NCBI GenBank assembly: GCA_000004985.1
Contig: GG738854.1
DNA length: 64,000 nucleotides
Reading direction: 5' to 3' (one strand)
Source: Naegleria gruberi
Taxonomy: Eukaryota
The notes under the pieces are model-generated. The model did no database searches. It worked only from the letters and a program-made list of their open reading frames with translations, and was not told where the DNA came from. Below are positions 26,428-35,693 of the stretch, one piece after another (within the stretch, counting starts at the first letter, position 1; every line of letters begins with the position of its first letter). Both the position numbers and the translations under genes were made by a program.

Positions 26428-29248
26428 TTATACATTTTCTACAACTGTTATTTCCTTCTTTTCGTGGAACTCTTTTGGTACATTAAACAATGAAATTACA
26501 GTTTCCAAATTTTTGCAATAGTCCAAAATTTTCTCTGAACCTGCCATGGAACTATCCAAATAAGATAATTGAGAAAAATGTAAGAATTTCAAGTTTGGGA
26601 AATAATTAAATGCTGAATAATCAATGAATGACATGCCTCCTGATGTAATTGTTAAATGGGTAAGATTTGGAAGAGCACTGGTATTCACACATCCAGAGAG
26701 TTGGCCAATATAACTTGTACAGTGAATTGGAATGTAGGTGCCAAACTTTTTCTTGTAGGATGATCTGTATTGGAGTTCAATTCTTGTCAGTAGGGGCCTT
26801 TTATCACATCCCTTTAAAAATTTGGTGCCGTTTTGTGGCTTTAAGCTGCTAATGTTGCACAATGACAATGATTTCATATTTGGATAATTGGTAGGGTCAG
26901 AAAGGGAATCAAAATACTCAGTATCATAGCTGGTGTCTTGAATTCTCAGAGATTCCAAACTAGTACTATCCTTGAAAATAGAGTTCAGTAGATTTACAAC
27001 ATCCACAGAGCAATTAATAATTTCTAATGTCTTGTAGTTATGTACATTTTGTCTATAAATATTCATCTTGGCTGCTGATATTGTTTGATTACTTTTCCAA
27101 TTTGTTATTGTCAATCGTTGAATTTCAGTCTTAGTATTGAACAATTCAAAATAGCTGACAGATATGGTAAGAGTCTTGATTTGCTTTGTCAATAGAGTTC
27201 TAAAACTATCTCCTTGATTAATTGAGGAGAGAGAGTTGACATAGGCTTTGTCAATAAGTGGACATTCCAAATCTACAATATTTTTCACCCTGTCTAGTAT
27301 TGTTCCATCTGCCACAAAGTTTGGTCCTTGTATACTCAACATTTGAATATCACGTTCCAATGTAAAGTTTGTCAACTGGTTGCTCTTAATGTAGACTGAA
27401 TCAGATCCTCCTTTCAATCCAGGTCCTAATCTCAAGTCATACAAGTTTGGACACTTGATAGTAATAGAATTATAGGTTAAAAGACAGATATTTTCCAGAG
27501 TTGAGGACTCAATTGTAACTTGCTTGTTGTGGTTTGAGGAATTGTTATAAACTAGGAGAGTTTTCAAATTGGGTAATCTTATAAGATTGATATGGGAAAG
27601 AACTTGTTCAGTAGTGTGTAATTCTTCAATATTTACAAGGAGAGGGAAAATTTTGGCATTCTTTTCTGTAATCTTTCCAATTTTTAATTTACGAATAGTT
27701 GACGGGAATTGAATAAGGTCTGACTCGTTTAGTGTTTCCATTTCTAATTCAATCAAATTCTTGAATCTATTAAGTTCAGAAACAATGGTACAACCCTTCC
27801 TATATGATGCTGAATCCACTAACTTTAAAGATTTGATATTTTCCAAATTGGCAACCACTGGTAGCATTTCATCAAAGAAAACCGAGTAGGTAACACAAAG
27901 TTTTGTCACTATTTTGGGTCAGCACATTTCTTTCAAATAAGAACTTACACTTTTTAGATTTGAAACAATATGTCATGTCTTCAGTTTCTTTCATTCTCAA
28001 TAGGAGAGATAGATCCAATCTCTTTAGATTTTCAAATTCGGGCAATTTAGATTCATCAACTTTCAAAATGACCAACTCCTCAATGCTTGCAGGATCTTCA
28101 AATTCAACATGCTTGTCGAAAAGTTTTGCAATATTAGTACCAGTCGGAATGGTTTTCTTGCTTGAAGATCTAATGTCGAGGAATCCCCAAAGTGAGATGA
28201 ACTCTGGTTCAAATATTGACTTGTTGATTTTAGGGAAAACCTGTGCAATGTCAGAGTCATTGGTTTCAATACTTGAATCATCCCAAGCAACTCTATATTT
28301 GGCATCTCTGTATTTGGCATTTGGAAAGACAACACCACTCGAGGCAAACCATTTAATTAGCCTTTGAGGAATGTCCCAAACTGTATAAATATTTTCCAAT
28401 CTCCAAGAAATGTACTTCTTATAAATTTCCACAAAATGCAATACTGAGTAGTCTGCATCAAAATCCAAATTAAAACAGCTCAGAGCACATGGATGCGAGC
28501 TAGCAGTGTGCCATGTTTTGCAAACTTGAGAAGCTTTAAGAAAATCAGAAAAGTCTAAAAAGGAGAAAACAGTAGACCAAATCTCTGGCAATTGAACAGT
28601 GTTCAATAATCCATACTCACTCATATCATGATTCTTTCCACGGAATAGTAATAACTCTGCTGATTTGCACAGATCACCCAATTTTGCAACCTTGTTTTGC
28701 AAATGTTTCAAGATTGTTATAATGCCTTGACGTTCTGCTGATGGAAGGCTTGGATAATTTAATTCCACAGAATCAAGAAAAGCAATTGATTCCTTTACGT
28801 GATTAACAGCTTGCATCGTAAATTCATTATCAAATTTGATTGAATCCAAGGATACTTCAACCTCCTCTTCTTTTACATCCATCATATCATACTGTTCTGT
28901 ATTTTCATCAAGTGGTGTTGATTTATCATTGGCCTCCTCCTCTTCATCAGTTTTATCCTTCTTCTTTGATTTCTTTTTCTTTGGTTCTTCAGCTTCTTCC
29001 TCCTCAACATTTGATGACGATGATGCAGAAGACTTCTTATTCTTCTTCTTTGGCTTTTCCGAATCATCATTCTTTTTCTTTCTCTTCCTCTTGGTCTTTT
29101 CCTTATAATCAGAATCATCCTCCACTTCAATCACCACTCTATCATCCTCCTCTACTTCTTCCTCTTGCTTACGTTCCTCCTCCTCGTGATCATCAGATGA
29201 ATCTGCTTTTGTCTTGGCCTTTTTACGTCTTGCTGTTCGTGGTGGCAT
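26428..29248 (-). CDS. F-box / leucine-rich-repeat protein with an N-terminal acidic/basic low-complexity region; two exons with a 40-nt intron at ~27909..27948
   Basis: The ATG is at 29248 (MPPRTARRKK). Lys/Glu/Asp-rich tracts are followed by the F-box motif LPEIWSTVFSFLDFSDFLKASQVCKTWH. The intron GTAAGTTCTTATTTGAAAGAAATGTGCTGACCCAAAATAG joins in frame (..KSKK|L TKLCVTYS..) to a C-terminal exon of about 490 aa with degenerate LRRs. Confidence 0.75.
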
Positions 29249-29549
29249 TTTTTTTAAAATAAAATCACAAGAACCATAACAATCGAAATGTAAAACGAAA
29301 AGCAGCGTTCTCAAGCATCACGTTTTACATGAATTCCTAATTAATGATGATAAAATTCTCACCACACAACCTGAAGCTATGTGAAGCAAAAACCAACAAG
29401 GCAAAGCTGGCTGATCGATTCAAAGAATCTAGTGAAGATTGACTTTTGGTGTTGACGTGAATGGAGAATGACAGGGAATTTTGCTTGAACGTGATGTATA
29501 AATAATTTACAATGTGAAAAATCATTACAAATGATTGAATGATAAATTA

Positions 29550-30326
29550 TTATTGATAGTAAATGTGATGGTTCCTCATAAAATTTTCCACATCTGAACA
29601 AACAAGATCTTGAATGGATTCTCCTTGTTTAGCTCTCTTTCGAACGAGTGTTGAACTACATTCCTCCTGCATAGTTGTTTCAATATGATAAATATCCTTC
29701 TCCCCTTTTCCTATATTACTCAATTGAGAATGTGATGGTCTCTGTAAAATTCCAACTCCAATTTGCAATTTTTTAGGGAATGACAATACATATCTACACT
29801 TGTTAATATGATCAGAACCACACAAGTAAATCAACTTGATTGGGGTTTGAGGAAATTCCTGCTTGATAAACTCATTCAAAGATATAGAGACTTCTGGGAA
29901 ATCAACAAATCCATCACACTCAACTGATTCCCATGCATCAACACTCAAAAAAGGACTCACATCCAAATGTTCCTTCTCAGCTTGTTCAATAGAAATCTCA
30001 CATAATTTCAATCGAGTTTCTGTCTCTATAAAATCCTCTTGTAATTTACTGGCAACATAACTCTTATGTGAAGGTGATATAAACGCTCCTACAACATGAA
30101 TTCCATATTGTTCCTCGAGAGCCTTTTTACACAAGTAGAATGTCTCAATGTGCATCCTATGAACTGGACAATAACTCCCCGTACTCAATATAATGGCCAT
30201 CTGTGTTTTATTCCAATCTCTACCATCATCATTTTGCTGTTGTTTTTTAAATTTTTGTATATTTTGTTTGACTTTATCGAGTGGAGTTGTCTTGTTATTC
30301 CTATCCGGATTCCTATGAAGAAACAT
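29550..30326 (-). CDS. NMNAT: Nicotinamide/nicotinate mononucleotide adenylyltransferase (NMNAT)
   Basis: The (H/T)xGH-type nucleotidyltransferase motif LSTGSYCPVHRMH and the C-terminal motif SSTLVRKRAKQGESIQDLVCSDVENFMRNHHIY match the NMNAT SSTKIRRAL..GQSIRYLVPD..V..YI..H.LY signature. It is about 258 aa, with an ATG at about 30326 (the listed ORF start is an upstream TTG). Confidence 0.8.
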   Translation of the reverse strand: MFLHRNPDRNNKTTPLDKVKQNIQKFKKQQQNDDGRDWNKTQMAIILSTGSYCPVHRMHIETFYLCKKALEEQYGIHVVGAFISPSHKSYVASKLQEDFIETETRLKLCEISIEQAEKEHLDVSPFLSVDAWESVECDGFVDFPEVSISLNEFIKQEFPQTPIKLIYLCGSDHINKCRYVLSFPKKLQIGVGILQRPSHSQLSNIGKGEKDIYHIETTMQEECSSTLVRKRAKQGESIQDLVCSDVENFMRNHHIYYQ

Positions 30327-30560
30327 GATCAAGTAAATTCAATTAATTTTTTTCTTGTTTGTTGTTACTGAGAACTCTCTTGAAGGATGAACCAATATTG
30401 TAATAGTAGATTGTTGCCACAAAATTCAGAAAAAAAAAAAGATACGTTGTCGCCGCCACATCATCGCATACAAACGATCAATTAATTGGTGCCAAAATTA
30501 CATCATCACACCTTTTGTAAATTAAATAGTTTTTGTCGTCATCAAATTATTCATCATAAA

Positions 30561-33193
30561 ATGCAACGTGTCTCTCCGAATATTAATCTTCATAATGAAA
30601 TTTGGGATAACACTACAACAAAAGACATTCCACAAATATTGAAAAATACATCTCCATCACCAAAGTTTTGGAGAAGAGAGGATATTCTGGTTCCCAATAC
30701 AAAAATTCAGGTAAAAAAGGAAATTGAGACAATTCATTTGTTGGAAGAGGAAGAATTTGATTCAACAGAAAGAGAGGAAGAGGAAGAGTATGAAACGGAG
30801 GAAATTGTGAATCATGATAGGTGTATCCTATTGAAAAATATTTTAAGTGAAGAAGAGTGCGAGAATTTGGTTTCAGTTACTGAAAAATTAGGGTATAATT
30901 CTATTGAACATGAATATGTGAAAGAGTATCGTAATAGTGAGAGAGTTGTAGTGACTAGTAAGAAGCTTGCCAATATCATTTGGGAAAGAATGATGTAAGT
31001 TATCAGATCAGCAATTTATTTTACAATTTCATCACACAACAGCCCACATTTGAAAAAGTCTGATTTCAATGGTGTAAAACCTTATGGTTTCGACAATAAG
31101 GGAAGATGGATTCCAATAGGGCTAAACAGCTGTCACAGATTTAACAAATATTCTGAGAAAACCTTCTTCAAACCCCACATGGATGCTCAACATTGTAATA
31201 ATGATAATGAGAGAAGTATTTTCACTGTATTGATTTATCTCAATCACTCTCTATATGGAACTAGATTATTGAAAAAGGTTCCAAATCCCAACTCAAATGA
31301 TGACCCCTCTGTTATGAGTTTCCAAGAGTTGCAATATGTACAACCAAGAATAGGTAATATTTTAATATTCAATCATGACCTCTATCACAGTGGAGATTCA
31401 GTTCGATATGGTAGCAAGTATATTATTAGAACAGAAATGATTTTCAAAAGAGTTGACTCTGAGAGTATTCACAGAATGGACTATAGAAACACTGAAGAAT
31501 TTTTGAAAGTTAAACAACTTGTTGACGAATCCACAGAATTGGAAAAACAAGGAATGGTCAGAGAATCAACTTTGAAATATTTGAAAGCTCACCAGGCCCA
31601 AGTTGATTTATCACACTCTCTCAGATCGGATAATACTGAAAAACATTATAGCTTTATAGAACAAGAACTTCCAGAAGAAATATTTGCTCATATTTTCAAA
31701 TACCTTCCTGTGACTGACGTTGTAAAGAGCGTGTTTTATTTGAACAGGGATATCAATGAGTATGCAAGAAATGCACAATTGTGGAAAGAATTATATCAAC
31801 AAAAATGGCCTTCAAAGTTGACTGTTAATAACGTTGTTGCATATAAGTATAACTATAATTATTCCAAATCTGAAAATGTCCCACCAAACTATATAGATGT
31901 GGAGAGTGCTGAAAACCAAGCTATTGCAAATATTGAATCAGAGAGAACCAGTATTTTTGGTGAGACGCTCAAAGATTGGTATCAAACTTTTATTTGCAGA
32001 GCTAATATGGAACTTTCGTTTTGTCCTGTCTTGTTAGATATTGGTGCAAAGAATTACAGATTTGGATTGGCTAGAGATAGTGCCTTTTTCACATCTTGCT
32101 CATTAGTTGGGCAACCAGATCATCCTCACTTTTATTTACCTAACTATGGCATGGACGATATTGTGGTTGGTGATAGATACATCCTCACCATTCATCACTG
32201 CTCGTCTTTACCCCTCCTGGCAACAAATGGACAAATAGTAGATTTTAACAACTTGAAGATTCTTTTGTGCCAAGTTTATGGTGATGATTTAAACGTTAAA
32301 TTGAGAGAACATCCACTCCTTCTTGCAGTATCTCCAATGTGGAGTCAAGATGATTTGAACCGAATTAGAAAGATTGTGGTAAGTTTGAAATATTCAATTC
32401 ATTTATTACAAAAAAATTAATAATTCAGTTTGAGTTGGAAATTCCTGCACTATGCATGGTTGATTCGAGAGAACTTGTTTCAAATTACTACCAAAAACCA
32501 AATTCCATACTAGTTCATATTGGTGCCTCCGGAAATATGTGTACTGCAATTCAAAATCACAAGCCTCTTCAGGACACCTTTTCAAGTGAGACTTTAAATC
32601 TGAAACAAATTCTTTCTCAATTTACATCAAGAACTCAATCATACTATTACGAACAATATAACTCATGGGATCAGGAATTACATCAGGGCGCTATTGTTCC
32701 TCCAATCTTGCAGGATGAAGATGTTGCTGCTTATAGGAAATTTGTTTCTGAACTCGGAAGATGTAAACTTGGACAAGAATCAGCCTATAATCGTACCTAT
32801 TTATCTGCAGAACAGAGAGTTTCAATTGGTGAGAGTATTTTACTGTCAACATTAAGTCAATTCACTAAATGCATCCAAACTGTAATCCACTCAACACAAC
32901 TCACCGATTTAGAAAAGCAACAAATCTTACAAAATATTGTGATTGTTGGAGGATTTTCTCACGTGAAAAATCTTACTTCCAAGCTTACTGAACTCATTTC
33001 AAAAATCTACAATGACATTCCTTTCAAAATCACTCCAACCTTCACCTACCAATCCTTCCATGAAGTACAAAGTGTCAATAGAAAAGGAATTAAGTACAGC
33101 CATTTTGGGGCTTGTTATGATGTGATTGGAGGTGCTAAGATCCTCGCCTCTCTCAATAACTTTATCGATATGTGCACTTTTATTGATGAATAA
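30561..33193 (+). CDS. Apparent fusion protein: prolyl-4-hydroxylase-type 2OG-Fe(II) oxygenase domain, then an F-box, then a divergent actin-related protein; three exons with introns at ~30995..31042 and ~32379..32428
   Basis: Exon 1 (MQRVSPN...CILLKNILSEEECENL..) and the start of exon 2 give a P4Hc-like fold, with RFNKYSEKTFFKPHMD (HxD), LYHSGDSV (second His) and KYIIRTEMIF (Arg). The F-box is LPEEIFAHIFKYLPVTDVVKSVFYLNRDINEYARNAQLWKELYQQKWP. An actin fold follows: VLLDIGAKNYRFGLARDSAFF..EHPLLLAVSPMWSQDDLNRIRKIV|FELEIPALCMVDSRELVSNY...VIVGGFS...YSHFGACYDVIGGAKILASLNNF. The region is one continuous reading frame with no stops across the domain boundaries, and both splice junctions are in frame. 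Confidence 0.65.
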
Positions 33194-33458
33194 AACAATA
33201 ATTTCAGAGTCAGTCTATTACATTTGCTTCAGTAACACCAACCTTCACAACAAATTCCAGCATGTGAACCAGCCCTATTCTCAACTTTGCCTAATTCACT
33301 ATCAATAGATGCGCATCAAGCCATTTTAGAATTTTCCTCTTTCAAAATCATAAAAAATTTTAAACCAATCCAAAAATTCAACGCTCCACAAATATTAAAT
33401 TACAAGATAATATAATATAATTGAAAATTGGAAAACAATAAACACACTAAACACACAT

Positions 33459-35562
33459 ATGGAAACAGATAAAGTTGTTGTAGAAGAAGGAGCAACCACC
33501 ACCACCACCTCTGATACTACCACTCTCTCCGAACTCTCCACTCATTGGATCCATCTTCATCAAATAATAATACAAATAATACAACTAATAATAAGAATAA
33601 TAACAAGAATGATAATAACAACAACAATCGGAGAGAACCAATCTCTCAGGATTCATATAGCAGTAGTGGTGATTCATCATCTTCATCCACATCAAGTTGT
33701 TCATCGAGTCAACAACAACAACAACAACACGAATTAATACCAACAACAACAATAGCAACAGACTATTACAAATAATACAATATTAAACAATCAGCACAGC
33801 TCGACTCTCCCAACAACTCCAATTAAAAGTAATTTCCTAACCAAGGAGGAAGAAGAGGAAAATCAAATCATTATTCATAGTAGTCGAGGAGATGAACAAC
33901 AGGAAAAACAACAAGAGGAATTACTAGCCTTACAAAATCAAATTTTCCTCTCACAGACTGGTATTTCAGAGACACCAATACTTGATAGTGCTGGTAGAGT
34001 TTTATTCGCTCATAAAACTTCATCGATGAGTATGACACACGATCAGCAGCAACAACATCAACTTGTACCAACATCACCATCGAGAAGTAGAATTCTATCA
34101 AATGTATCATCATCAGGTGTTGGTACTGCTGGTGGATTGAATAATCAAGATGTCATTGGAGCTAGAGATGTAATGCTATTAACACCAACTAAACAACATC
34201 AACAACATAACAATAATTTGGCATCTCCTAAAGGGTCTGAGAAATCCTCATCTCGACATTTTGCTCTATTTGATAGTGCAGATTTGGAAGAGGAGAAGCA
34301 CCAATCGGAAAAGTTTACAACTTTGGAAAGTAATAGGGAATCACTTAAATTAATGAAGAGAAGACATCGAGAAAATTATCTACCAGAGACTTTTCTTCAC
34401 TTTTGTAAACATGAAACATCTAAGATTTATGGTTGGAGTTTAGAGAGCGAGAAACATTCTGTCCAATTTTATAACAAATCGATATCACTTCATTCATTGA
34501 CAACTGGAGACTTTTCTGCAATTTCTAGGTTAACTTCACAAAATACTTTAGAAAGTACCAGTACACAGGATTTATCGAAAAATTTACGATTCAAGCAAAC
34601 ACCAATGATTAACGATTCTGTTAATTTTGTAATTGCCAATAGATTTGTTGGTATTTTGAGTGATACGAATTTTAGGGATGCATATTTGGCTTGTAAGGAT
34701 ATTCAATTGAGAAAACAAGCAAAACAAATGGAAGAAGTTGTAGTTTTGGAAAGTTATTATCATGTGGAAGGACCTGAAATTACTGATTCACGAAAATCTA
34801 AGATACCAGATGAGAGTTTTGATATTATTTATCAGAGAACCTCATCACCGAATACTCTATTTGGTAGGTTTTTTGTTCATTTTGGAGGATATTAATGTTT
34901 CTTATATTATTGGAATAGTTTCAAAGAGAGAATATCTCACAGCAAGATACTTTATTGAGGAATCGGAACGATTAATTATTTTGGAAAGATCTATCGAAAA
35001 GATACTTCCCATTCCATCAATGCTTCAAGCACTGACCATGGAGAATGATAAGATACTGAACGATTTCAAGAATGAGCATCATCATCACCATCTGAGTGAA
35101 ACAAACACTCCACTTCAATCCAATAATAATTTACAAAATGATATTTCACTTTCTCCTTCACAACGACAACGTAGTAGGAGTGTTGGAATGAGCAATTCTA
35201 GTAGGCCAATAAGTGAAATTCACATGACACCACTCTCTGCCAGAACAACTACATCATCTCATATTTTACAACAAAGCGCTCCGAATTTAACTTTACAACC
35301 CTATCCAAACGACACCCTCAAAACCACACTTGCAAGCAGCACTGCTCCAACTCAGAAAGGTGTGGTTCGAGCTAATATTTTATTCCAAATTTTGATATTT
35401 GATCGATTGAGCGATACGGAGACCAAGTTCCAGATCATTAATAATGTAGATGTTAAGGGGTGGCTTAAATCTTGGAATTCCATTACTCAGAAGAGTACGC
35501 CACACAAAATATTTGAAGATTTTGTTGATGTAATTGAAGAGCACAAGAAGAATACAAAGTAG
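33459..35562 (+). CDS. Low-complexity (Asn/Gln/Ser/Thr/His-rich) hypothetical protein; the 5' structure is uncertain, with one confirmed ~55-nt intron at ~34875..34915
   Basis: The ORFs 34026..34895 and 34762..35562 join via a GTAGGT...GGAATAG intron (..NTLFG|VSKREYLTARYF..). The upstream region 33459-34025 is open in overlapping frames with N/T/Q homopolymers. Confidence 0.4.
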
Positions 35563-35693
35563 AACTTTGCAAGAAAATTAAAGCCCTTCACCTTATTTTG
35601 GTATTCTAATACATTGTTAATTGTTACAAATTAATGTTTATTATCAATAGGTTTCACTGATAATGATGTTATTTCGTTAGGTAATTAGGAGTG

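What the first reader, a model, noticed from the sequence alone, without database searches (positions are those of the whole stretch)
30561..33193. Possible novel fusion: prolyl-4-hydroxylase-like 2OG oxygenase, F-box and actin-related protein in one spliced gene
Three exons join in frame across two short introns (..IIWERM|I PHLKK.. and ..RIRKIV|FELEIPALCMV..). The N-terminal about 280 aa has the P4Hc signature (LLKNILSEEECENL; KPHMD HxD; second His in LYHSGD; basic residue in KYIIRTE). The central region is a clear F-box (LPEEIFAHIFKYLPVTDVV...LWKELYQQKWP). The C-terminal about 400 aa is a divergent actin fold (VLLDIGAKNYRFG..., ..IVIVGGFS.., ..YDVIGGAKILASLNNF). Skp1 prolyl hydroxylation by a cytoplasmic P4H (PhyA) is established in Dictyostelium and Toxoplasma. 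F-box proteins are the Skp1 partners. A single polypeptide joining a P4H-like domain, an Skp1-binding F-box and an Arp module has not, to my knowledge, been described. It would physically link oxygen sensing, SCF recruitment and an actin-like scaffold.
Basis: partly seen in the sequence, partly recalled or inferred. Interest (0 to 1): 0.75.

Follow-up and report, generated by a model that had tools for sequence, protein, structure and literature searches.

The report
Hydroxylase–F-box–actin-fold protein of amoebae
This Naegleria gruberi gene really does encode one protein that joins a prolyl-hydroxylase-type oxygen-using enzyme, an F-box (the handle that plugs proteins into SCF ubiquitin ligases) and a degenerate actin-like domain, and the same uncharacterised design is conserved in other Naegleria species, Willaertia, Physarum and dictyostelid slime moulds.

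Summary
Window 30561-33193 (+) is a three-exon gene. Its introns (48 and 50 nt, GTAAGT...CAG) lie at positions shared with a Naegleria lovaniensis paralogue. It encodes 844 aa. The middle exon is one ORF covering the oxygenase core, the F-box and the first half of the actin fold, so the fusion does not depend on splicing.

Pfam gives 2OG-FeII_Oxy_3 at 33.8 bits and Actin at 64.8 bits, both above threshold. F-box-like scores 24.1 bits against a cut-off of 24.3, but a family profile hits the F-boxes of FBXL5 and Cdc4.

The actin domain is a complete fold (TM 0.75-0.82 to actin, paralogue model). It has lost the conserved ATP-binding residues.

The gene is not unique. An exhaustive profile search finds 289 cluster representatives at E<=1e-30. 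All three domains occur in Heterolobosea and Amoebozoa, including a Physarum transcript. I found no paper describing the family.

The most likely function is an oxygen/2-oxoglutarate-dependent SCF substrate receptor. The closest characterised analogue is Dictyostelium JcdI/Fbxo13. The function is inferred, not shown.

The parts
30561..30994 (+). Exon 1 (aa 1-144 plus the first two bases of codon 145). [quoted passage not shown]
   Evidence: The start Met aligns with the paralogues' N-termini. No hydrophobic signal or TM segment is present (max Kyte-Doolittle 0.11 in the first 80 aa).
30995..31042 (+). Intron 1, 48 nt, GTAAGT...CAG, phase 2.
   Evidence: An in-frame TAA at 30996 stops the unspliced frame. 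The paralogue alignment is gapless across IIWERM|IPHLKK. N. lovaniensis P0001 has an intron at the same position, WQRIQ|PFL.
31043..32378 (+). Exon 2 (last base of codon 145 through aa 590). It is a single ORF carrying the DSBH catalytic core (H190, D192, H260, K270, R274), a two-helix hairpin (aa ~290-336), the F-box (aa 353-397), a variable linker, the conserved prelude KDWYxxFIxRANME (aa 455-468) and actin subdomains 1/2 up to RIRKIV.
   Evidence: ORF 31050-32420. Pfam PF13640 at aa 178-273, PF12937 at aa 353-397, PF00022 from aa 473. Invariant residues.
32379..32428 (+). Intron 2, 50 nt, GTAAGT...CAG, phase 0.
   Evidence: The actin homology continues across the junction: RIRKIVFE-LEIPA against actin RMTQIMFEsFNVPA. 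P0001 has an intron at the same position, RIKSDV|FSLGIP. A 1-nt indel is tolerated here in a second strain.
32429..33193 (+). Exon 3 (aa 591-844 plus the stop codon). It encodes the rest of the actin fold (subdomains 3/4 and the C-terminal part of subdomain 1), including IVIVGGFS (the adenosine-loop GG) and YDVIGGAKILASLNNF.
   Evidence: Pfam Actin matches as two stretches. Family actin profile against PDB actins gives 1e-14 to 1e-10. The paralogue model superposes on actin with TM 0.75-0.82.
31118..31417 (+). Core of the 2OG/Fe(II) oxygenase active site (aa ~170-270): HxD (KPHMD), the distal His (LYHSGD) and the 2OG-binding Lys at His+10 (KYIIRTE).
   Evidence: H190, D192, H260 and K270 are invariant in 10 family members. 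The equivalent positions are invariant in 63 diverse relatives.
31665..31799 (+). F-box (aa 353-397, LPEEIFAHIFKYLPVTDVVKSVFYLNRDINEYARNAQLWKELYQQ).
   Evidence: Pfam F-box-like 24.1 bits against a cut-off of 24.3. Several paralogues pass the cut-off. The family profile hits the F-boxes of FBXL5 (7e-6), Cdc4 (5e-5), FBXW12/21, KDM2B and FBXO4.

Best explanation
The gene encodes a cytosolic or nuclear F-box protein of a conserved amoeba-lineage family, with five parts in order:
- a short N-terminal region;
- a catalytically competent 2OG/Fe(II) protein hydroxylase of the prolyl/lysyl-hydroxylase structural family, nearest to collagen-type P4H;
- a two-helix hairpin;
- an F-box;
- a complete but nucleotide-site-degenerate actin fold.

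Shown here: the single ORF architecture; conservation of the iron and 2OG ligands; F-box homology; the actin fold (on a paralogue model) with loss of the ATP-binding signature; conservation of the architecture across Heterolobosea and Amoebozoa.

Inferred: the F-box docks the protein on Skp1. This would make it an SCF substrate receptor or a Skp1-bound enzyme. The actin-like domain would serve as the partner- or substrate-recognition module, taking the position that WD40 or LRR domains occupy in other F-box proteins. Binding probably uses its family-specific invariant surface (G.P.HPHFY..YG.DD..GD in subdomain 2). The N-terminal hydroxylase would use O2 and 2-oxoglutarate to hydroxylate a protein residue on the recruited client, on the actin-like domain itself, or on an SCF component. 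Ubiquitylation or complex assembly would then become dependent on oxygen and metabolite supply. This is the same logic as the Dictyostelium F-box/JmjC dioxygenase JcdI (Fbxo13).
For: Architecture:
- One ORF spans all three domains.
- Pfam hits: Actin 64.8, 2OG-FeII_Oxy_3 33.8, F-box-like 24.1 bits.
- Nine full-length homologues have the same layout.
- Of 63 long relatives, 63 have PF13640, 49 have F-box-like and 31 have Actin.
- Physarum transcript P0049 has all three domains above the Pfam cut-offs.

Active oxygenase:
- H190/D192/H260/K270 are invariant.
- The oxygenase is the most conserved segment of the family, at 59% mean identity against 34% for the actin part.
- The AF2 model has pLDDT 84.

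F-box: the family profile hits FBXL5, Cdc4, FBXW and KDM2B F-boxes.

Actin fold without an ATPase signature: TM 0.75-0.82 to actins. S14, G15, Q137, D154, D157, G158 and H161 are not conserved.

No signal peptide or TM segment is present, consistent with a cytosolic SCF role.

The gene is intact. Between two strains, exons differ by 0.36% with no indels, while the flanks differ by 2.6-4.7% with indels.

Precedent: JcdI/Fbxo13 binds Skp1 through its F-box and is an O2-limited dioxygenase (PMC9485057).
Against: - No transcript, protein or interaction data exist for this gene or any family member.
- The window's own F-box scores 0.2 bits below the Pfam cut-off.
- The substrate and the residue type (Pro, Lys or other) are unknown. 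Non-prolyl 2OG enzymes such as AlkB and PolD score only slightly lower in the fold searches.
- The structure models are of the N. lovaniensis paralogue P0001 (43-45% identical overall, 59% in the oxygenase domain), not of the window protein.
- Inter-domain geometry is not reliable (pTM 0.55).
- The strain comparison gives 4 synonymous and 5 non-synonymous differences, too few to demonstrate purifying selection.
Confidence: 0.55

Rival explanations
1. Gene-model artefact: two or three neighbouring genes (an oxygenase, an F-box protein and an actin-related protein) have been wrongly joined by assuming introns.
For: A prokaryote-style gene caller splits the locus into ORFs of 145, 460 and 252 aa on a near-identical metagenome contig. 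No RNA evidence is available for this locus.
Against: - The 456-aa middle ORF by itself contains the oxygenase core, the F-box and the actin N-half with no stop.
- Both junctions are gapless in the family alignment.
- The intron positions are shared with P0001.
- A Physarum transcript encodes all three domains.
- The architecture recurs in dozens of cluster representatives.
Confidence: 0.02
2. A cis-acting Skp1 hydroxylase. The F-box tethers the enzyme to Skp1, and the oxygenase hydroxylates Skp1 itself, as PhyA does in Dictyostelium and Toxoplasma. The actin-like domain localises the complex.
Against: - The domain is nearer to collagen-type P4Hs (25% and 19% identity) than to PhyA (13%).
- It has Lys at His+10, where DdPhyA has Arg276 (PMC7864055).
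- Dictyostelids already have PhyA and also carry this family, so the function would be redundant.
- I found no data on Skp1 modification in Naegleria.
Confidence: 0.12
3. A cytoskeletal or chromatin Arp-like subunit whose F-box and oxygenase are secondary. The actin fold would incorporate into actin filaments or an Arp-containing complex. The F-box would act mainly as a degron or Skp1-dependent stabiliser of the protein itself, as proposed for some Fbxo-type proteins.
For: The actin fold is complete. The D-loop/subdomain-2 region is invariant in the family. All named members come from amoeboid organisms. JcdI levels are themselves controlled through its F-box (PMC9485057).
Against: - The nucleotide-binding residues and the hydrophobic-plug loop needed for conventional polymerisation are lost.
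- The actin part is the least conserved domain (34%), while the oxygenase is the most conserved (59%).
- About half of the long relatives show no Pfam Actin match.
Confidence: 0.2
4. A decaying or non-functional paralogue in an expanding gene family.
For: The family is multicopy with deep, star-like paralogy at about 40% identity. The strain comparison shows 5 non-synonymous against 4 synonymous differences. No self-hit was returned from the protein database.
Against: - The 844-codon frame is intact in two strains with no indels, while the flanks carry many.
- All catalytic and family-invariant residues are retained.
- The splice sites are canonical.
Confidence: 0.05

Closest known systems
Dictyostelium JcdI / Fbxo13 (F-box + JmjC dioxygenase related to JMJD6; PMC9485057)
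   Same: Both are single polypeptides combining a Skp1-binding F-box with an O2- and 2OG-dependent non-heme iron dioxygenase. Both are found in amoeboid protists and lack a classical WD40 or LRR receptor domain. JcdI gives an experimentally supported model of oxygen sensing wired into SCF/Skp1.
   Different: JcdI's oxygenase is a JmjC domain placed C-terminal to the F-box. Here the oxygenase is a PF13640, P4H-type DSBH placed N-terminal to the F-box. JcdI has no actin fold. Nothing has been tested experimentally for the present family.
KDM2A/KDM2B (FBXL11/FBXL10)
   Same: These are F-box proteins that carry their own 2OG oxygenase domain N-terminal to the F-box. The KDM2B F-box is hit by the family F-box profile (E 0.003).
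   Different: They are JmjC histone demethylases with CXXC, PHD and LRR domains and act in chromatin. They have no P4H-type domain and no actin fold.
Collagen-type prolyl 4-hydroxylases (PBCV-1 vCPH 5c5t, Chlamydomonas P4H 2jij, B. anthracis P4H, human C-P4H and P4H-TM)
   Different: Those enzymes are secreted, ER-luminal or membrane-anchored and act on (X-Pro-Gly)n or Ser-Pro-rich substrates. This protein has no signal peptide or TM segment and is fused to an F-box. Sequence similarity is too low (PDB profile E 0.008) to call it orthologous.
PhyA / PHD2 (cytoplasmic Skp1 and HIF prolyl hydroxylases)
   Different: Identity in the paralogue-model superposition is only 13%. The 2OG-binding residue is Arg in DdPhyA (Arg276, PMC7864055) but Lys here. 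PhyA and PHD2 have no F-box or actin fold.
Orphan actin-related proteins and actin fusions (yeast Arp7/Arp9, Dictyostelium filactin)
   Same: All have an actin fold embedded in a larger protein or complex. Arp7 and Arp9 score like conventional actins against the family profile. From my own knowledge, Arp7 and Arp9 likewise have degenerate nucleotide sites.
   Different: This domain is not assignable to Arp1-11, since conventional actins are the best hits. Filactin's actin domain is nearly conventional (PMC2441452), whereas this one is 14-17% identical to actin in the paralogue model and lacks the plug loop.

Membership tests
2OG/Fe(II) oxygenase superfamily, Pfam PF13640 (2OG-FeII_Oxy_3; prolyl/lysyl-hydroxylase structural family) | Profile score above the curated Pfam cut-off | tested here: met
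   33.8 bits against a cut-off of 27, aa 178-273. 63 of 63 long relatives also match.
2OG/Fe(II) oxygenase superfamily, Pfam PF13640 (2OG-FeII_Oxy_3; prolyl/lysyl-hydroxylase structural family) | HxD...H iron-binding triad plus a basic residue for the 2OG C5 carboxylate | tested here: met
   H190, D192, H260 and K270 (His+10) are invariant in 10 family members. The equivalent positions are invariant in 63 diverse relatives.
2OG/Fe(II) oxygenase superfamily, Pfam PF13640 (2OG-FeII_Oxy_3; prolyl/lysyl-hydroxylase structural family) | Double-stranded beta-helix fold with N-terminal helices | tested here: met
   [not shown]
2OG/Fe(II) oxygenase superfamily, Pfam PF13640 (2OG-FeII_Oxy_3; prolyl/lysyl-hydroxylase structural family) | Prolyl 4-hydroxylase activity on a defined peptide substrate | not testable with these tools
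   [not shown]
PhyA/PHD-type cytoplasmic prolyl hydroxylases (Skp1/HIF hydroxylases) | Arg as the 2OG C5-carboxylate ligand after the distal His (Arg276 in DdPhyA), and closest similarity to PHD/PhyA | tested here: not met
   [not shown]
F-box proteins (Pfam PF12937 / PF00646) | Profile score above the curated cut-off | tested here: inconclusive
   The window protein scores 24.1 bits against 24.3 (F-box-like) and 14.0 against 20.5 (F-box). Paralogues and amoebozoan members pass, for example P0049 at 32.1, P0076 at 36.4 and P0045 at 42 bits. 49 of 63 relatives match.
F-box proteins (Pfam PF12937 / PF00646) | LPxE(I/V)hxxIhxxL ... LW consensus, homologous to structurally defined Skp1-binding F-boxes | tested here: met
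   LPEEIFAHIFKYL...LWKELY is present. P, E, F, I, F and W are invariant in the family. The family profile hits FBXL5 (7e-6), Cdc4 (5e-5), FBXW12/21, KDM2B and FBXO4, each at its F-box.
F-box proteins (Pfam PF12937 / PF00646) | Binding to Skp1 and assembly into SCF | not testable with these tools
   This needs co-immunoprecipitation, co-expression or yeast two-hybrid with Naegleria Skp1.
Actin family (Pfam PF00022) | Profile score above the cut-off and a complete four-subdomain actin fold | tested here: met
   64.8 bits against a cut-off of 27. Family profile against PDB actins gives 1e-14. The paralogue model has TM 0.75-0.82 over about 390 columns to actins.
Actin family (Pfam PF00022) | Conserved nucleotide-binding signature (phosphate-1 DxGSG, phosphate-2 DxGDG, Q137, H161) | tested here: not met
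   In the window protein: S14 to A, G15 to K, D154 to H, D157 to A, G158 to S, H161 to M. These positions vary across the family. Only G13, G156 and G301/G302 are largely kept.
Named Arp classes (Arp1-Arp11) | Closer to one Arp class than to conventional actin | tested here: not met
   Conventional actins are the best PDB matches. Arp1, Arp7 and Arp9 score similarly or lower. No phylogeny with all Arp classes was made.
JmjC-F-box proteins (KDM2A/B, JcdI/Fbxo13) | JmjC-type oxygenase domain | tested here: not met
   There is no JmjC/cupin Pfam hit. The domain is PF13640 and P4H-like. The protein may work like these proteins but is not a member of the family.

The most novel reading that the evidence does not exclude
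The family could be a self-contained 'hydroxylate-then-ubiquitylate' machine of amoeboid cells. The degenerate actin fold would capture actin, an Arp or an actin-binding partner. The attached P4H-type enzyme would hydroxylate that partner, or the invariant G.P.HPHFY loop of the actin-like domain itself, in proportion to O2 and 2-oxoglutarate supply. The F-box would deliver the complex to SCF. One polypeptide would then do what PHD and VHL do as two separate proteins in animals, and it would couple oxygen sensing directly to the actin cytoskeleton and motility or aerotaxis.
Probability: 0.15. Interest if true: 0.85.

Novelty: new variant of a known kind. Interest (0 to 1): 0.62.

Why it matters
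F-box proteins that carry their own dioxygenase are rare. In Dictyostelium (JcdI) they have been shown to feed oxygen availability into SCF/Skp1 biology.

This family uses a different oxygenase class, P4H-type rather than JmjC. It places an actin fold where a substrate-recognition domain normally sits. It is conserved and expanded in amoeboid protists from two eukaryotic supergroups. These include the close relatives of the pathogen Naegleria fowleri and genetically tractable dictyostelids.

If the inferred function holds, it offers a direct, testable route from O2 and metabolite sensing to ubiquitin-dependent control of an actin-related target. It also adds an unrecognised orphan branch to the actin superfamily. 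The published Dictyostelium 'actinome' does not mention such a fusion.

Tried and rejected
- All structure models are therefore of the N. lovaniensis paralogue P0001, with window exon translations included as alignment rows.
- **No gene-position records for N. gruberi.** N. gruberi records are absent from the gene-position index. I could not see how, or whether, the locus is annotated in NEG-M. No self-hit came back from the 5.8-billion-protein search. This may reflect a missing annotation or masking by the tool.
- **Last homologue search wasted.** The last homologous-protein run, made with the 63-sequence alignment to obtain organism names, returned only the first query sequence.
- **AFDB unavailable.** The afdb50 fold library was not available, so no AlphaFold-database census of the architecture was possible.
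- **Synteny not followed up.** The gene context of the best paralogue P0001 (RWD/Impact, dNK, TRM10 neighbours) does not match the window's neighbours. Together with star-like ~40% identities, no one-to-one orthologue in N. lovaniensis or N. fowleri could be assigned. The other paralogue loci were not fetched.
- **Literature.** Ten full-text searches found no paper describing a 2OG-F-box-actin protein and none on Skp1 hydroxylation in Naegleria. Two West-lab papers, PMC4623824 and PMC4288264, are not held. The supplement of PMC9485057 contains none of the search terms (actin, 2OG, oxygenase, hydroxylase, P4H).
- **Rejected readings.** I rejected separate genes (single ORF), a PhyA orthologue (Lys rather than Arg, low identity), a secreted collagen-type P4H (no signal peptide or TM segment, and fused to an F-box) and a conventional or polymerising actin (nucleotide site and plug loop lost).
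Full report
**1. What is in the sequence**

The window is Naegleria gruberi NEG-M DNA. Three neighbouring ORFs are exact matches to XP_002680291, XP_002680293 and XP_002680170 on a 665-kb scaffold.

- The ATG at 30561 is the first in-frame ATG after a stop.
- The exons are 30561-30994, 31043-32378 and 32429-33193.
- The introns are 48 and 50 nt, both GTAAGT...CAG.
- The spliced CDS is 2535 nt and encodes 844 aa with no internal stop.
- All quoted peptide motifs are found at the expected positions.

**2. Is it one gene?**

Yes, for five reasons.
- The decisive point does not involve the introns. Exon 2 is a single uninterrupted ORF (31050-32420 in the mechanical ORF list). It contains the oxygenase catalytic core (aa 178-273), the F-box (aa 353-397) and the first ~115 residues of the actin fold (from aa 473).
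- Both splice junctions are independently supported. Nine full-length homologues align without gaps across IIWERM|IPHLKK and RIRKIV|FELEIP. The phmmer alignment to actin runs straight across junction 2.
- The N. lovaniensis paralogue P0001 has four introns. Two of them sit at exactly these two positions.
- A metagenome contig (ENA ERZ929261 k127_281704) is 98.3% identical over 6.1 kb and syntenic with the window. It has 9 substitutions and no indel in the 2535 nt of exons. The flanks show 2.6-4.7% substitutions plus many indels. A 1-nt indel lies inside intron 2.
- A Physarum polycephalum transcriptome sequence (Phypoly_transcript_03225, P0049) encodes all three domains above the Pfam cut-offs. 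This is direct evidence for a single mRNA in a homologue.

**3. The three domains**

*Oxygenase.*
- Pfam PF13640 scores 33.8 bits against a cut-off of 27.
- H190, D192, H260, K270 and R274 are invariant in the ten-member family alignment. The HxD...H...K positions are invariant in 63 diverse relatives.
- A family profile against PDB sequences hits only prolyl 4-hydroxylases, though weakly: B. anthracis P4H at E 0.008 and Chlamydomonas P4H at about 0.7.
- An AlphaFold model of the P0001 domain has pLDDT 84.1. P0001 is 59% identical to the window protein in this domain. The model shows a double-stranded beta-helix followed by two long helices and the F-box helices.
- Foldseek ranks P. putida PPHD, PiuC-like proteins, Dictyostelium PhyA, PHD2, and the B. 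anthracis and Chlamydomonas P4Hs first (E 1e-8 to 1e-6).
- The 2OG-binding basic residue is Lys at His+10. From my own knowledge this is the collagen-type arrangement (Lys493 in human C-P4H). DdPhyA uses Arg276 (PMC7864055).
- There is no signal peptide or transmembrane segment, unlike collagen-type P4Hs.

*F-box.*
- The window sequence scores 24.1 bits against the 24.3-bit F-box-like cut-off.
- Paralogues and amoebozoan members pass.
- A nine-sequence profile of this segment hits the F-boxes of FBXL5 (7e-6), Cdc4 (5e-5), FBXW12/21, KDM2B and FBXO4 in the PDB.

*Actin fold.*
- Pfam Actin scores 64.8 bits.
- The family profile gives conventional actins at 1e-14 to 1e-10. Arp1, Arp7 and Arp9 score no better.
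- The full-length P0001 model has pLDDT 76.6 overall and 80-93 in this domain. It superposes on actins with target-normalised TM 0.75-0.82 over about 390 columns at 14-17% identity.
- Aligned to beta-actin, the canonical nucleotide-site residues are replaced in the window protein: S14A, G15K, D154H, D157A, G158S, H161M. These positions vary across the family. The hydrophobic-plug loop is deleted.
- In contrast, a subdomain-2 segment, G.P.HPHFY..YG.DD..GD, is nearly invariant. Its HPH core recurs (HPHY, SPHY) in the Physarum and Tieghemostelium members.
- I read this as a pseudo-ATPase actin fold used as a binding module.

**4. Distribution**

The word-indexed search found nine full-length homologues, all heterolobosean, at 37-43% identity with the same layout: five in N. 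lovaniensis, two further N. gruberi paralogues, one in N. fowleri and one in Willaertia magna. The tree is star-like, so these are old paralogues.

An exhaustive HMMER search with the full-length family profile found 6259 proteins at E<=1e-3 and 289 at E<=1e-30 among 50%-identity cluster representatives. Of 63 long representatives, 63 have PF13640, 49 have F-box-like, 40 have F-box and 31 have Actin. A few carry ankyrin, rhodanese, FYVE or macro domains.

Named members include:
- N. lovaniensis XP_044549069;
- the Physarum polycephalum transcript P0049;
- Tieghemostelium lacteum KYQ91724;
- Dictyostelium purpureum XP_003288080.

The last three each carry all three domains above the Pfam cut-offs; XP_044549069 (P0040) has 2OG-FeII_Oxy_3 and F-box-like above threshold but Actin at 24.8 bits, just under the 27-bit cut-off.

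The oxygenase is also related to stand-alone proteins of about 185-355 aa. Many of these carry the same C-terminal helical hairpin, and some have TPRs.

The architecture therefore spans Discoba and Amoebozoa. Every member with a known source organism is amoeboid. Most members have no taxon label in the tools I had.

**5. How it most likely works**

*Shown:* one polypeptide with an intact 2OG/Fe(II) active site, an F-box, and an actin fold that lacks the ATPase signature. The oxygenase is the most constrained part, at 59% mean pairwise identity. The F-box is at 45%, the actin fold at 34% and the linker at 24%.

*Inferred:*
- The F-box binds Skp1.
- The actin-like domain occupies the position of the substrate-recognition domain.
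- The hydroxylase modifies a protein in the complex in an O2- and 2OG-dependent way.

The best experimentally characterised analogue is Dictyostelium JcdI/Fbxo13. It is an F-box plus JmjC dioxygenase that binds Skp1 through its F-box. It has a Km(O2) of about 22% and shifts the O2 requirement for development (PMC9485057). KDM2A/B are the animal precedent for an oxygenase N-terminal to an F-box.

I give about 0.55 to the general 'Skp1/SCF-associated active hydroxylase with an actin-fold recognition module' reading. More specific versions score lower: Skp1 as the substrate about 0.12, and a coupled hydroxylate-then-ubiquitylate machine acting on actin-related clients about 0.15.

**6. Novelty and verdict**

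Ten full-text searches found no description of this architecture. The Dictyostelium actinome paper does not mention such a fusion. The sequences are public but are labelled only 'hypothetical', 'F-box domain-containing' or 'Fe2OG dioxygenase domain-containing'.

Because F-box/dioxygenase proteins and actin-fold fusions are both known kinds, I class this as a new variant of a known kind. It is a P4H-type oxygenase with an F-box and an orphan actin fold, forming a conserved amoeba family. It is not categorically new.

The functional link to oxygen sensing and Skp1 remains an inference. Interest: 0.62.

**7. Limits**

- No expression or biochemical data exist for any member.
- The structure models are of a 43-45%-identical paralogue.
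- Inter-domain geometry is not reliable (pTM 0.55).
- I could not establish how the locus is annotated in NEG-M.
- The taxonomic census rests on a handful of named sequences.

Noticed in passing
window 26428-29314 (-): Just upstream of the finding, beyond one intervening 258-aa ORF, lies another F-box gene. ORF 27875-29314 has F-box-like (33 bits) and F-box (30 bits) hits. The adjoining ORF 26431-27909 has weak LRR hits. It is probably one spliced FBXL-type gene.
   Followed up: partly
L003 (ENA ERZ929261, contig k127_281704), aligned to window 29500-35600: A metagenome contig is 98.3% identical and syntenic to the window over 6.1 kb, so a second N. gruberi-like strain was sampled in an environmental data set. 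Its prokaryote-style gene calls split the gene into ORFs of 145, 460 and 252 aa.
   Followed up: yes
P0004 (N. fowleri FDP41_008733) versus P0015 on L002: The N. fowleri gene model lacks the N-terminal half of the F-box and the preceding helix. A nearly identical ENA contig ORF (P0015) encodes the intact LPEEIFATIFSYL segment. The deposited model probably splices out a coding segment.
   Followed up: partly
P0076 (Dictyostelium purpureum XP_003288080, 2127 aa): The same 2OG-F-box-actin module is followed by about 1300 further residues with lipase_3, STAND NTPase and many TPR hits. This is either a much larger multidomain variant or a merged gene model.
   Followed up: no
P0053, P0063 (unnamed JGI and EukProt sequences): These variants have an N-terminal rhodanese-like domain before the 2OG-F-box module and no Pfam Actin hit. 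Other relatives carry ankyrin, FYVE, macro or NADAR domains. The 2OG-hairpin-F-box cassette appears to be the conserved core, with a variable C-terminal module.
   Followed up: partly
window aa 501-521 (nt ~32108-32170) and family alignment A1: The segment G-x-P-x-H-P-H-F-Y...Y-G-x-D-D...G-D, aligned to actin's D-loop/subdomain 2, is almost invariant in the Naegleria/Willaertia family. Its HPH core recurs (HPHY, SPHY) in the Physarum and Tieghemostelium members, although the rest of the actin fold is only about 34% conserved. Its role is unexplained. It could be a binding surface or a hydroxylation target.
   Followed up: partly
window aa 33-47 (nt ~30657-30701): A conserved N-terminal motif, PKFWRRxDILxPG, precedes an acidic low-complexity stretch. 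In the P0001 model it forms a small beta unit (pLDDT 75-86). It has no Pfam match.
   Followed up: no
[not shown]
   Followed up: no
window 33459-33775 (+) and 34026-35562 (+): Downstream of the gene lies a T/N/S/Q-rich low-complexity ORF. After it come two overlapping ORFs, the second with a START lipid-binding domain hit (32.6 bits). They are probably one spliced gene.
   Followed up: no
window 29550-30326 (-): The divergently oriented upstream ORF (258 aa) has no Pfam hit and no exact match in the protein collection. It is conserved, with 1.2% substitutions and no indels, in the second strain.
   Followed up: partly
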